From NCBI GenBank assembly GCA_016839555.1, contig JAEOUA010000012.1, forward strand, positions 192,001-256,000: DNA of 64,000 nucleotides, given 5' to 3'. Position 1 is the first letter of the stretch, and the number at the start of each line of letters is the position of its first letter. The DNA is from Promethearchaeota archaeon. Its GTDB lineage: Archaea > Asgardarchaeota > Lokiarchaeia > Sigyniarchaeales > SOKP01. Both the position numbers and the translations under genes were made by a program. Shown here piece after piece: positions 13,151 through 29,551 of the stretch. Below the pieces are notes generated by a model. The model was not told the origin of the DNA and searched no databases. It worked only from the letters and a program-made list of their open reading frames with translations.

Positions 13151-14720
13151 ATGAGATTAAAAGTAAAAAAAATTAATTTTGAAACAGGCCACATGAAAGA
13201 TGTAGTTTTAAATTATCTAGATGCTGCTAAACTGGATAAAAAAGCTGGCGAACGAGTCATAATCAAAAATGTTGAATCAAAAAATTTGGATGAGAAATAT
13301 TGGGTTGCAATTATTCAAATATCACATTCTGATAATATAGTTGCACCTGGAGAATTAGGTGTTTTCGTAGATACATTAAATGATATAAAAAATCTCAGAG
13401 CTGAAAGTGAAGTTTCCGTAAAACCTGCAAACCCTCCAGATTCATATCAATATATTAAAGAAAAAATAGCTGGGAAAAAATTAAGGACTGAAGATATCAA
13501 CGATATTGTTAACGATGCAGTCTCTGGGCTTCTTTCACGAATCGAATTATCCTCTTTTATCACTAGTGTATCCATTCATGGTATGAGCAATAGAGAAATG
13601 AAGGCCTTAACCCTTGCTGAAGCAAAAAGTGGGGAGGCATTCGATTTTGGTCCGAATGTCTATGATAAGCATAGTACATAAATTTACATATCAGTAAATT
13701 TAGCTAAAAGGAGGCGTCCCGGGTAATAAGGTCTCATTAATTATCGTTCCTATTATTGCAGCAGAAGGATTAACCATTCCCAAAACGAGCACGAGAGCCA
13801 TTACTTCCCCTTCAGGTACAGCAGACTCGATGGAAGTTTTAGCTCCAATTGAATTTAACTCGGAAGAAGTAAAAAGAATCATTTCAGAAATAGGAGCTTG
13901 TATTATTTGGGGGGGTGCATTAGATATTGCTCCAGCTGATAATGTGTTAATTGAAGTAGAGAGACCTTTACATTTAGATCCATGGGGACTGATGATTCCA
14001 TCAATATTGGCAAAGAAAAAATCGATGGGGGTGAAGCAATTGGTATTGGACATCCCTGTGGGAGGCGGAACTAAATTCAGCACTCCTGATGATGGAAAGA
14101 AATTTGCTCATATATTTAAACAAATAGCAAGTAGTGTAGGAATTGAATCAGAATGCGCACTTACTTTAGCTCATCAACCCATAGGGCATAATATTGGACC
14201 TGCCTTAGAGGCGAAAGAAGCGTTAACTCTATTACGAGATTATTCTGCTGGTCCAAATTCCCTTATTGAAAAATCTACTTCATTAGCGGGAATAATTTTT
14301 GAAATGGCAGGAAAAGCATCTAAAGGAGAAGGTCAGAAATTGGCTAAGGATATATTGAAATCAGGCAAAGCCTATCAAAAAATGCAAAAAATTATCGAAA
14401 TTCAAGGTGGCAATCCGGATATTACTCCAGAAGAAATAAATTTAGGTCCCTATAAAAAGGACTTTTATTCAACTAAATCAGGATTTATTACTGAGGTTGA
14501 TAATGCGATAATTAATCAAATTTCAAAAACAGCAGGATGTCCTTTTTCTAAAACCTCTGGTGTAATTGTTTATAAGAAGCAAGGGGCAAAAATCGAAGAG
14601 GGTCAAAAAATTCTTACTGTATATTCTAACAGCAAAACTAAACTCAGAAGAGCAATGAAGTTTTATAATATTAGTGGAGGCCCAGTAATTCTAGGGGGTA
14701 TGTTGATTGAGAGAATATAA
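13151..14720 (+). CDS. deoA: AMP phosphorylase (thymidine phosphorylase family), two exons 13151-13677 and 13709-14720, 512 aa spliced
   Basis: Joined product reads DKHST-GGVPGNKVSLIIVPI...IPKTSTRAITSPSGTADSME...WGGALDIAPAD...SILAKKK. Confidence 0.9.
13678..13708 (+). other. Candidate 31-nt bulge-helix-bulge mRNA intron
   Basis: Central helix UAGU/GCUA, 3-nt bulges ACA and AAA, 9-bp stem UAAAUUUAC/GUAAAUUUA; removal restores the frame and the conserved motif. Confidence 0.82.
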
Positions 14721-28186: not shown

Positions 28187-29551
28187 TCAAACAGAAGTAA
28201 ATTCGGTTTTTTTTGGTGGAAATAAGTTTAAGGATACACCTAATTCATGTGCCTCTTCTTGTTTGGCGTATTGTTTAACTGATATTCCTTGCATTGCAGC
28301 ATCTATAGCTTGTCGAAAGGCTCTAGCCCCTGCAATTGGTCCCTCCGGATGAGCATGTATTGCTCCTCCACTCCCAATCATAATATTTGGACCTAAATCC
28401 TCCACAATCTTTTCAACTAATCCTTGTGTAATACCACCACTGGGCATTGGCATTGTACGTTTAATATGAGGCGCATTGCGCATCGGCATAACCATTTGAC
28501 GAGCAGTTTCCAAAAACTTGTCTTTACTTGTAGGTGCTTTTCCATAAGGAGCAGGATGGACAATTGTATCACAGCCAGCTAATCTTCCGAATTTTCCAAG
28601 TATTAAGGGGCTACTAACGCCTCCCCATGGATCTTGATATATAGCTCCAGCAAAATCCATATGTCCTAAGATGGGAACTTTCACGGAAGGATCTTCTGCC
28701 AATTTTCTCATTGCAGAATATCCAACTGAGATGTGATTAACCATTAATGCATTTGCTCCATGTTCTTGGGCTATGTCTGCAAGCTCGAACATCCGATCTA
28801 CTCTATCTGTGATATTGACGGTATATAATGTTTTTTCTCCTTTTTCCTCATCTGCCCTATCAAGCGCTTCCATAAATTTGGTAAGCCTTTCGGTTAAAGG
28901 ATTAAAATCAACATCAGCAATTAATTCATCGTCTTTGATCACATCGCAGCCTCCTACAGCCGCTTGATAAGCTAATTCTGCAGCTGGTGTTTCTGAAAGC
29001 GTATAGACACAAGGTTTTATCATATTATTTAATAAAGGTCTCTCAGGTACTCCTAAGATTTTTCTAATCCCTATATCTCCAAATTTTGGCCCTTTAAATT
29101 CCTTCAAGAATGCTTTTGGAAAACGCACGTCCACCATTTTAAGAGGTCCACCCATAGAAATATTACCGAAAATAGTGGTAAATAGCATAGGAAATTGCGG
29201 TCTGAAATTTAATGGATAAGCGACTTGTACTATCCAATCTCTATATTTAGGATTATCAAAAAAGTCTTCGACACCTTCATATTCATAATCGGGAACTGAC
29301 CATAACCCAATAACTTTTGCAACGTGTTTTCTCCTTGTTTCGGGTGTTTCCGCAGGAACAGCAACAAATGTCCCTGTGCTCTGCTCTATACATAAACTCT
29401 GTGTCATATAAAACGCATCCATTTTCCTATGGAGTTTGGCAATATAAGTTGCGATGATATGAGTCTCATAATCAATATCTTCTGGTAAGGCATTAGGTCT
29501 ACTTAATCTATCTAAATCAAATTTATCAAATTCTTCCGGCAATTTTGACAT
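28187..29551 (-). CDS. RuBisCO-like protein (form IV, RLP)
   Basis: EQSTGT, IKDDE, PSGG and GSGGAIHAHP present, but IKPC replaces KPK and HMDFA replaces HRAxH. Confidence 0.85.
   Translation of the reverse strand: MSKLPEEFDKFDLDRLSRPNALPEDIDYETHIIATYIAKLHRKMDAFYMTQSLCIEQSTGTFVAVPAETPETRRKHVAKVIGLWSVPDYEYEGVEDFFDNPKYRDWIVQVAYPLNFRPQFPMLFTTIFGNISMGGPLKMVDVRFPKAFLKEFKGPKFGDIGIRKILGVPERPLLNNMIKPCVYTLSETPAAELAYQAAVGGCDVIKDDELIADVDFNPLTERLTKFMEALDRADEEKGEKTLYTVNITDRVDRMFELADIAQEHGANALMVNHISVGYSAMRKLAEDPSVKVPILGHMDFAGAIYQDPWGGVSSPLILGKFGRLAGCDTIVHPAPYGKAPTSKDKFLETARQMVMPMRNAPHIKRTMPMPSGGITQGLVEKIVEDLGPNIMIGSGGAIHAHPEGPIAGARAFRQAIDAAMQGISVKQYAKQEEAHELGVSLNLFPPKKTEFTSV

What the first reader, a model, noticed from the sequence alone, without database searches (positions are those of the whole stretch)
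13672..13712. Candidate tRNA-type (BHB) intron inside an Asgard protein-coding gene (AMP phosphorylase)
Seen in sequence: the gene reads ...GAT AAG CAT AGT AC|A TAAATTTAC ATATCA GTAAATTTA GCTA AA|A GGA GGC GTC CCG GGT AAT AAG. A 31-nt insert with an immediate in-frame TAA and a frameshift splits the conserved DKHST/GGVPGNK motif, and no coding nucleotide is lost or duplicated. The RNA folds as a 4-bp central helix UAGU(13672-75)/GCUA(13703-06), a 3-nt bulge ACA(13676-78), a perfect 9-bp stem (13679-87/13694-702) with a 6-nt loop, and AAA(13707-09) at the second bulge position. Established: archaeal splicing endonuclease EndA cuts after the 2nd nucleotide of each bulge. Applying that rule removes 13678-13708 and gives AGT ACA GGA GGC (S-T-G-G), an intact 512-aa enzyme. 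The third nucleotide of both bulges is A, as is typical. BHB mRNA introns are classically known from crenarchaeal cbf5; I know of none described in this gene or lineage. Caveat: the outer exon-exon helix is weak, so this is a relaxed motif. Inference: this organism splices mRNA with the tRNA machinery (EndA plus RtcB), and other genes annotated as split may carry such introns.
Basis: partly seen in the sequence, partly recalled or inferred. Interest (0 to 1): 0.95.

Follow-up and report, generated by a model that had tools for sequence, protein, structure and literature searches.

The report
tRNA-type mini-intron in Asgard AMP phosphorylase
The only AMP phosphorylase gene of this Asgard (Loki-type) archaeon is broken inside its phosphate-binding motif by a 31-base insert shaped like a tRNA intron. 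Thirty-three related genomes carry a co-evolving insert at the same codon in an otherwise well-kept gene, so the mRNA is very probably cut and rejoined by the tRNA-splicing enzymes, which papers document for very few archaeal mRNAs.

Summary
Window 13678-13708 is a 31-nt insert with an immediate in-frame TAA. It splits DKHST|GGVPGNK of a 512-aa AMP phosphorylase, and exons 1 and 2 match TIGR03327 positions 1-165 and 167-500.

- **Distribution:** 34 of about 114 orthologues that could be judged, in 10 of 13 genera of the family, carry a 29-31-nt insert at the same codon.
- **Structure:** RNAalifold, with no structure given, predicts a 4-bp helix, a 3-nt bulge and a 9-bp stem. 98% of cells pair and 10 of 13 pairs show compensatory changes. 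The His-codon wobble base in exon 1 covaries with an intron base (UA 25, CG 9, none broken).
- **Coding:** cutting after the 2nd bulge nucleotide restores an intact ORF in 34 of 34.
- **Selection:** dN/dS is about 0.08 and the gene is single-copy.
- **Enzymes:** the genome has a crenarchaeal-type EndA catalytic subunit, a divergent second EndA paralogue and RtcB.
- **DNA:** contigs of two independent studies carry the insert.

Two caveats apply. No RNA run exists, so splicing is inferred. There is no outer exon-exon helix, so the motif is relaxed.

This scan has already reported such mini-introns in other genes of the same genome. I read two of them (argG, RNase HII) and found a further one, in an HDAC-family gene, not among the eight notes I was shown. 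I found no paper on this in Asgard.

The parts
13151..13677 (+). Exon 1 of AMP phosphorylase: codons 1-175 plus the first two bases (AC) of Thr codon 176
   Evidence: ORF. Pfam Glycos_trans_3N. TIGR03327 positions 1-165. PDB 4ga5 residues up to 165.
13672..13675 (+). 5' strand of the central 4-bp helix H (UAGU). It is exonic: the His wobble base plus the Ser codon
   Evidence: Pairs with 13703-06. 100% of cells are paired in 34 sequences, with UA:25 and CG:9 at the outermost pair.
13676..13678 (+). Bulge 1 (ACA). The predicted 5' cut lies between 13677 and 13678
   Evidence: Three unpaired nt between H and the stem in all 34 orthologues (ACA 31, ACT 3). The cut rule is taken from PMC2738675.
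13678..13708 (+). 31-nt intron with an in-frame TAA at 13679-81
   Evidence: Removing it restores a 512-aa ORF. It is unique in the genome. It is present in DNA contigs of runs X1, X2 and X4.
13679..13702 (+). Intron helix h': a 9-bp stem (13679-87 with 13694-702) and a 6-nt loop (13688-93)
   Evidence: Pair probabilities 0.41-0.999 in the single sequence. 97% of cells are paired and 8 of 9 pairs show compensatory change.
13703..13706 (+). 3' strand of the central helix H (GCUA), intronic
13707..13709 (+). Bulge 2 (AAA). The predicted 3' cut lies between 13708 and 13709. Base 13709 becomes the third base of the Thr codon
   Evidence: In orthologues the third base is A, C, T or G, and the result is always ACN = Thr.
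13709..14720 (+). Exon 2: the last base of codon 176, then GGVPGNK... to the stop codon (14718-14720)
   Evidence: Pfam Glycos_transf_3 and PYNP_C. TIGR03327 positions 167-500. PDB 4ga5 from residue 167.

Best explanation
Window 13678-13708 is an archaeal bulge-helix-bulge (tRNA-type) intron inside the coding sequence of the genome's only AMP phosphorylase gene.

Proposed mechanism:
1. In the pre-mRNA, four exon bases (UAGU, from the His-Ser codons) pair with the last four intron bases before the 3' bulge (GCUA). This forms the central helix.
2. A 9-bp intron hairpin supplies the inner helix.
3. The splicing endonuclease EndA, here of the two-paralogue broad-specificity kind, cuts after the second base of each 3-nt bulge.
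4. RtcB joins the exons, giving ...CAU AGU ACA GGA GGC... and a 512-aa enzyme. The 31-nt intron is probably released as a circle.

Without splicing, translation ends at the TAA right after the 5' cut and gives a 176-aa fragment that lacks the catalytic domain.

Shown here: the structure, its covariation, the exact in-frame junction, purifying selection, the presence of the enzymes, and the insert in DNA. Inferred: the cleavage and ligation themselves, and the circular intron.
For: - **Sequence and frames:** as described.
- **Exon continuity:** exon 1 matches TIGR03327 AMP_phos positions 1-165 and exon 2 matches 167-500. In PDB 4ga5 the exons align up to residue 165 and from residue 167.
- **Recurrence:** the insert sits at the same codon in 34 of about 114 orthologues that could be judged in the family, in 10 of 13 genera.
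- **Consensus structure:** RNAalifold on a 110-nt context predicts exactly H (4 bp), a 3-nt bulge and a 9-bp stem.
- **Covariation:** 98% of cells are paired and 10 of 13 pairs have compensatory change. No shuffle of 500 reaches this, and slid controls give 29-49%.
- **Exon-intron coupling:** the synonymous His codon change CAU to CAC in exon 1 always comes with A to G in the intron (25 UA, 9 CG, 0 broken).
- **Junction:** removing the insert gives an intact ORF in 34 of 34, about 512 aa from the first ATG in 32 of them.
- **Stops:** every insert carries an in-frame stop, including the 30-nt ones (open frames of 338-340 aa).
- **Selection:** median dN/dS is 0.08 among intron-bearers at saturated dS.
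- **Copy number:** one copy in G000 and in nearly all intron-bearing genomes.
- **Enzymes:** two EndA paralogues. One resembles crenarchaeal EndA chains (3p1z_B, E = 5e-40). The other is divergent and has no His at the aligned position. There is one RtcB.
- **DNA support:** the insert is present with 0 differences in contigs of X2 and X4, and X4 is from another study.
- **Not a repeat:** no other copy exists in the genome.
- **Same architecture elsewhere:** an HDAC-family gene, argG and RNase HII are split in the same way.
- **Pathway context:** intact RuBisCO-family and e2b2-family genes lie side by side.
Against: - No RNA run holds this sequence, so no spliced read or circular intron has been seen.
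- No outer exon-exon helix is predicted. The 3' bulge is closed on one side only, which makes this a relaxed motif.
- In the single sequence the minimum-energy fold pairs UAGU into an exon-1 hairpin (CUAUG with CAUAG). The H pairs have probability of about 0.001. H is therefore supported by covariation and not by energy.
- A generic genome-wide scan (BHB shape plus ORF fusion) showed little or no excess over frame-shifted controls. It gives no statistical support for a genome-wide class.
Confidence: 0.85

Rival explanations
1. Translational bypass (hopping), as in phage T4 gene 60 or the mitochondrial byp elements. The ribosome would take off at ACA before the stop in a hairpin, skip about 30 nt and resume at GGA.
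For: A stop codon follows the putative take-off codon directly, and a stable hairpin starts there. This resembles gene 60 (from my own knowledge).
Against: - Bypass needs a landing codon that matches the take-off codon. Here the take-off is ACA or ACT, but the codon before GGN is AAA, AAT, AAG, AAC, ATT, ACT or ACA across orthologues.
- Bypass does not explain the covariation between the exon bases UAGU and the 3' end of the insert. It also does not explain the conserved 3-nt spacing.
Confidence: 0.04
2. The insert is removed from the RNA, but not by EndA and RtcB. Another nuclease and ligase, or an unknown guide-dependent system, would do it.
For: The motif lacks the outer helix, and the H helix is weak by energy. 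No enzymology was done.
Against: - The geometry is exactly that of the BHB core, and the in-frame junction falls exactly at the rule's cut sites.
- Relaxed motifs are cleaved by heteromeric EndA in Crenarchaeota (PMC2738675; abstract of PMC5829648).
- This genome has that type of EndA.
Confidence: 0.06
3. The gene is dead or split. The insert would be a tolerated hairpin insertion, and either no full-length enzyme is made or two separate polypeptides work together.
For: As annotated, the frame is broken. A 176-aa N-terminal ORF and a 296-aa ORF starting at an ATG (13830) both exist.
Against: - dN/dS is about 0.08 over saturated synonymous divergence in 34 intron-bearing genes. No further stop or frameshift occurs in any of them.
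- The stretch 13710-13829, which includes GGVPGNK, has no start codon in front of it yet is conserved.
- The gene is the sole copy.
- The insert itself is under structural selection.
Confidence: 0.03
4. The insert is an assembly or sequencing artefact, or a mobile repeat (MITE-like).
For: The genome is a MAG of 12 contigs, and the insert is a short AT-rich palindrome.
Against: - The sequence is identical in contigs of three runs from two studies.
- A homologous insert is present in 33 other genomes.
- There is no second copy in the genome.
Confidence: 0.01

Closest known systems
BHB intron in the cbf5 (aCBF5 pseudouridine synthase) pre-mRNA of Crenarchaeota (Watanabe 2002; Yokobori 2009, PMC2738675)
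   Same: - A short intron inside a protein-coding sequence that splits a codon in a catalytic motif.
- An unconventional or relaxed BHB, with cuts between the 2nd and 3rd bulge residues.
- Dependence on a heteromeric EndA.
- A patchy distribution that implies gain and loss (compared).
   Different: - A different gene (AMP phosphorylase).
- A different lineage (Asgard, class Promethearchaeia, by a relative's record title).
- One of several interrupted genes in the same genome, whereas in the papers I read cbf5 is the only coding-sequence case named.
- Splicing of cbf5 is shown by cDNA and in vitro cleavage. Here it is not shown.
BHB intron in the 5' UTR of HVO_1309 mRNA of Haloferax volcanii (PMC7714728)
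   Same: An mRNA substrate of the archaeal splicing endonuclease.
   Different: That intron lies in the untranslated leader, so no reading frame depends on it. It has been shown experimentally.
Non-canonical tRNA introns of Asgard archaea (bioRxiv 10.64898/2026.10.13.758758)
   Same: The same lineage and the same presumed machinery. That paper reports two full-length EndA paralogues in 44 of 60 genomes. Size and hairpin-like shape are similar.
   Different: Those introns lie in tRNA genes. The preprint does not deal with protein-coding genes: 'mRNA' occurs 0 times in it.
HAC1/XBP1 unconventional mRNA splicing in eukaryotes (Ire1 plus a tRNA ligase; RtcB in animals)
   Same: A short intron is removed from a coding sequence by a protein endonuclease and a tRNA ligase without a spliceosome, and this changes the reading frame. 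This comparison rests on my own knowledge and on the abstract of PMC5435141 listed.
   Different: The endonuclease is different (Ire1) and the motif is different (two 7-nt loops). That system is a regulated stress response. There is no homology of the intron.

Membership tests
Archaeal BHB (EndA-cleaved) intron | Central helix of exactly 4 base pairs | tested here: met
   13672-75 pairs with 13703-06. 100% of cells are paired in 34 orthologues. Two of the four pairs show changes on both sides.
Archaeal BHB (EndA-cleaved) intron | Two 3-nt bulges on opposite strands, one at each end of the central helix | tested here: inconclusive
   The 5' bulge (ACA or ACT) is closed on both sides in 34 of 34. 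The three bases after H on the 3' side (AAA and variants) are closed by H only, because no outer helix follows.
Archaeal BHB (EndA-cleaved) intron | Flanking helices h (exon-exon) and h' (intron) of the strict hBHBh' form | tested here: not met
   h' is present (9 bp, covarying). h is absent from the RNAalifold consensus. This makes it the relaxed form, for which I use the name HBh' from my own knowledge of Marck and Grosjean 2003. The strict form is not met, while the relaxed form is a recognised substrate class.
Archaeal BHB (EndA-cleaved) intron | Cuts after the 2nd nucleotide of each bulge give a functional joined product | tested here: met
   An intact ORF in 34 of 34, about 512 aa from the first ATG in 32, with junction codon ACN = Thr. 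The profile and the PDB chain are continuous across the junction: 165, then the split codon, then 167.
Archaeal BHB (EndA-cleaved) intron | Host encodes a splicing endonuclease able to cut relaxed motifs, and an RNA ligase | tested here: met
   Two PF01974 paralogues. One is closest to A. pernix, S. tokodaii and P. aerophilum EndA chains. The other is divergent and lacks His at the aligned site. One RtcB is present. The substrate range itself was not tested.
Archaeal BHB (EndA-cleaved) intron | Spliced RNA and excised (circular) intron observed | not testable with these tools
   No RNA run holds the sequence.
AMP phosphorylase (NCBIfam TIGR03327, equivalog) | Full-length match above the curated cut-off of 535 bits | tested here: inconclusive
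   The exons score 108.9 and 455.9 bits on adjoining profile parts. A rough sum is 565 bits. The joined protein could not be submitted. The best solved relative is 4ga5/4ga4.
Translational bypass element (T4 gene 60 / byp type) | Matching take-off and landing codons | tested here: not met
   The take-off codon is ACA or ACT. The codon before the resumed frame is AAA, AAT, AAG, AAC, ATT, ACT or ACA.
Miniature mobile repeat (MITE-like) | Several similar copies in the genome | tested here: not met
   blastn-short finds only the insert itself. Other hits are exact words of 11-15 nt.

The most novel reading that the evidence does not exclude
In this family of Asgard archaea (Promethearchaeia), splicing of messenger RNAs by the tRNA endonuclease and ligase is a routine, multi-gene step of gene expression. 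Mini-introns of about 30 nt sit inside catalytic-motif codons of several essential or central enzymes. Synonymous codon choice in the exons co-evolves with the intron to keep the cleavage helix. The introns have been lost precisely many times, which would imply recombination with a copy of the spliced mRNA. If true, close prokaryotic relatives of eukaryotes already have to finish mRNA splicing before translation.
Probability: 0.6. Interest if true: 0.9.

Novelty: new member of a known kind. Interest (0 to 1): 0.8.

Why it matters
Published cases of protein-enzyme (BHB) splicing of archaeal mRNAs come down to cbf5 in Crenarchaeota and one 5' UTR in Haloferax (PMC7714728). This would be a new case in a central-metabolism gene of an Asgard archaeon, the group closest to eukaryotes, and it sits next to several others in the same genome.

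Three consequences follow.
- **Annotation:** gene callers will report two fragments or a pseudogene for a live gene, so metabolic reconstructions of these MAGs will wrongly lack the AMP-salvage step.
- **Cell biology:** an in-frame stop right after the 5' cut means that translation of unspliced mRNA gives a truncated protein. The cell must either splice before ribosomes arrive or tolerate the waste. This makes the question of transcription-translation coupling in Asgard archaea testable.
- **Evolution:** the covariation between exon wobble bases and the intron, and the patchy, base-exact presence and absence, give a clean system for studying intron gain and loss outside the spliceosomal world.

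Tried and rejected
- **RNA evidence:** The look-up of sequencing runs listed no RNA holder, so expression and splicing could not be examined.
- **Genome-wide scan, strict descriptor:** requiring a perfect H and a stem of at least 6 bp, plus fusion of two frames each open for at least 60 codons, gave 11 loci. Controls with the 3' cut displaced by 1-2 nt gave 3-7 loci.
- **Genome-wide scan, relaxed descriptor:** 82 loci against 77-91 in controls. A first control that slid both cuts together was uninformative by design, and one version timed out. A simple shape-plus-ORF scan therefore cannot count such introns in this 30% GC genome. It also missed argG and RNase HII, whose inserts fold differently.
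- **Single-sequence folding:** it does not recover the H helix.
- **Outer exon-exon helix:** a 6-bp distal pairing appears in a constrained fold of the single sequence but not in the consensus. I rejected it as not conserved.
- **Rfam:** no family matched on either strand of 13300-14100.
- **Upstream exon in genus g8:** I looked for one in the short orthologues and found none.
- **Literature:** five full-text searches found no paper on BHB introns in Asgard protein-coding genes. The library is not complete, so this is not proof that none exists.

Full report
**1. The observation**

- An ORF starting at 13151 runs to a TAA at 13679-81 (176 aa).
- A second frame is open from 13710 to the stop at 14718-20 (336 aa).
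- Between them lies a 31-nt stretch (13678-13708) containing a perfect 9-bp hairpin, 13679-87 with 13694-702, and a 6-nt loop.
- Four bases before the hairpin (UAGU, 13672-75) can pair with the four bases after it (GCUA, 13703-06).
- Three unpaired bases (ACA) lie on the 5' side between the two helices, and three bases (AAA) follow the helix on the 3' side.

I checked the topology against the canonical tRNA case. There the 3' bulge lies next to the exon-exon helix, and the 5' bulge lies between the central helix and the intron helix.

**2. The gene**

- Exon 1 carries Glycos_trans_3N, and exon 2 carries Glycos_transf_3 and PYNP_C.
- Against NCBIfam, exon 1 matches the AMP phosphorylase equivalog TIGR03327 at profile positions 1-165. 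Exon 2 matches positions 167-500 of 500.
- Against the solved AMP phosphorylase chain 4ga5, exon 1 aligns up to residue 165 and exon 2 from residue 167.
- Exactly one residue is missing between the exons, and it is the split codon AC|A. No coding base is lost or duplicated.
- The genome has a single copy of the gene.
- A RuBisCO large-subunit gene lies next to an e2b2-family gene at C1:107808-109691. These are candidates for the other two steps of the archaeal AMP-salvage route (pathway from my own knowledge). The e2b2 match is below the equivalog cut-off.

**3. Comparative evidence, which decides the case**

I searched 135 genomes of the same family with exon 2. In 34 of them the open frame ends 2-4 codons upstream of GGVPGNK, against about 76 with a continuous frame of more than 500 aa.

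I fetched all 34. Every one has an insert of 29, 30 or 31 nt at exactly the same codon. They come from 10 of the 13 genera. Sixteen genomes of three other families of the order have continuous frames at this site.

Covariation:
- 10 of 13 pairs show a change on both sides, across 47 cells.
- No shuffle of 500 reaches any of the five measures.
- Sliding the 3' partners by 1-3 columns drops pairing to 29-49%.
- RNAalifold, given 110-nt contexts and no structure, returns exactly the same 4-bp helix, 3-nt bulge and 9-bp stem.

The most telling pair is the outermost pair of the central helix. Its 5' partner is the wobble base of the His codon in exon 1, and its 3' partner is an intron base. It is U-A in 25 sequences and C-G in 9, and it is never broken. 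The third base of the Ser codon behaves the same way (C-G 19, U-G 14, U-A 1).

All 34 intron-bearers use AGY for this Ser. Five of the 14 intron-less orthologues I fetched use TCN. These rows are related to one another, so this is only a hint.

**4. The junction**

Cutting after the second base of each bulge and joining gives an uninterrupted ORF in all 34. It is about 512 aa from the first ATG in 32 of them. The third base of bulge 2 becomes the wobble base of the Thr codon. It is A, C, T or G in different genomes, and the result is always Thr.

Cuts one base later on both sides would give the same protein, so coding alone cannot fix the cut to the base.

Inserts of 30 nt keep the frame but always carry in-frame stops (open frames of 340 aa). 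Read-through is therefore not an option.

**5. The gene is alive**

Among the 34 intron-bearing genes the median dN is 0.17 and the median dS is 1.66, and many pairs are saturated. The median dN/dS is 0.08. This is at least as low as among intron-less orthologues (0.12).

None of the 34 has any further stop or frameshift. Nearly all have a single copy. A pseudogene would not look like this after that much divergence.

**6. The insert is real DNA and not a repeat**

- Contigs of three runs hold the stretch 13400-14000 (for X2, 13400-13860) with no difference. One of these runs is from a different study and habitat label.
- A fourth run holds a relative's allele without the insert, reading AAA CAC TCA ACA GGA across the site.
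- The 31-mer has no other copy in the genome.
- No Rfam family matches.

**7. The machinery**

- The genome has two proteins with the tRNA-intron endonuclease catalytic domain.
- One is closest to the EndA chains of Aeropyrum pernix, Sulfolobus tokodaii and Pyrobaculum aerophilum (E = 5e-40 to 4e-30).
- The other is much more divergent. In a pairwise alignment it has no His where the first has the His of its Y...H...K pattern. The assignment of that pattern as catalytic is from my own knowledge.
[quoted passage not shown] A recent preprint reports this architecture in most Asgard genomes.
- One RtcB ligase gene is present.

**8. Weak points**

- No RNA run holds the sequence, so splicing is inferred.
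- There is no conserved outer exon-exon helix. The flanking exon is the invariant GGVPGNK coding sequence and cannot easily supply one. The motif is therefore of the relaxed kind.
- In the single sequence, the nearest-neighbour model prefers an exon-1 hairpin (CUAUG with CAUAG). It gives the H pairs a probability of about 0.001. That hairpin is not conserved; for example, L003 has CTTTG.

**9. Distribution in time**

In a quick maximum-likelihood tree of the 48 proteins, the intron-bearers are spread over the whole ingroup. The outgroup genus g8 lacks the intron. Well-supported branches force at least 5 changes of state.

The insert sequences are alike across genera. One old gain with repeated base-exact losses is therefore the simplest reading, but the direction is not resolved. 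I also included only 14 of about 80 intron-less genes. The careful tree search did not finish, so the tree is the quick one.

**10. Other genes**

- My own strict scan returned a second clear case. It is a 30-nt insert with a 9-bp stem and the same layout at G000:C10:447264-447293 (minus strand). It splits DFDLHTG|DGN of a histone-deacetylase-family gene, and both exons match PF00850.
- Following earlier notes of this scan, I read two further sites on the window's contig. A 30-nt insert lies inside YSGGL|DTS of argG at C12:324995-325024 (minus strand). A 28-nt insert lies inside DEAGR|GPVLGP of RNase HII at C12:69955-69982. Both are there. I did not analyse their structure or relatives.
- As a statistical census the scan failed (see Tried and rejected).

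**11. Lineage**

A relative with 77% identity in exon 2 is titled 'Promethearchaeia archaeon', which is the Loki-type Asgard class.

**12. Comparison with what is known**

The closest known case is the cbf5 intron of Crenarchaeota. It is also short, splits a catalytic-residue codon, has a relaxed BHB, is cut between bulge residues 2 and 3, needs the heteromeric endonuclease, and is patchy in distribution (PMC2738675).

A 2020 paper states that cbf5 was then the only other BHB intron reported in an archaeal mRNA, besides the 5' UTR case that the paper itself describes (PMC7714728). Five full-text searches found nothing on Asgard protein-coding genes.

This is therefore a new member of a known kind: a new gene and a new lineage, and one of several in one genome. 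This scan has already reported such mini-introns in other genes of the same genome. The AMP phosphorylase case is not among the eight notes I was shown. Two other notes on this same stretch are first-reader notes only.

**Verdict**

My confidence that this is an EndA/RtcB-spliced mRNA intron is 0.85, and the interest score is 0.8.

Noticed in passing
G000:C10:447264-447293 (minus strand); L054:565-594: A 30-nt insert with the same layout (CAGG, GGA, a 9-bp stem, CTTG, AAA) splits the DFDLHTG|DGN motif of a histone-deacetylase-family gene. Both exons match PF00850. It is not among the eight earlier notes shown to me.
   Followed up: partly
G000:C12:324995-325024 (minus strand) and G000:C12:69955-69982 (plus strand): Inserts of 30 and 28 nt lie inside YSGGL|DTS of argG and DEAGR|GPVLGP of RNase HII, as earlier notes said. 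With the HDAC and AMP phosphorylase cases, all four sit inside catalytic or ligand-binding motif codons, as the cbf5 intron does.
   Followed up: partly
L049-L052 (genus g8 orthologues): The AMP phosphorylase orthologues of one genus start at MSSYDYILKK and lack the first roughly 95 residues found in the rest of the family. No upstream exon is visible in any frame. They also lack the intron.
   Followed up: partly
G103:C103:5011-6018 and G103:C128:7402-8409: One related genome (9% contamination) holds both an intron-less copy and an intron-bearing copy of the gene. These may be two strains in one bin or true paralogues.
   Followed up: no
Run X5, contig laid on window 13607-13872: A relative's allele in a marsh metagenome lacks the insert. 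It differs at 5 of the 12 bases just before the junction (AAA CAC TCA ACA against AAG CAT AGT ACA), while the 164 nt after it differ at only 5. This fits a release of the helix constraint or a replaced patch.
   Followed up: no
window 28250-29065 (minus strand): A second, weaker RuBisCO large-subunit-family match (144.8 bits) lies in this window. The stronger one is at C1:108813-109691, next to an e2b2-family gene.
   Followed up: no
window 13660-13674: An exon-1 hairpin CUAUG with CAUAG (codons Y-D-K-H-S) competes with the central helix in the single-sequence fold. It is not conserved in all orthologues.
   Followed up: partly
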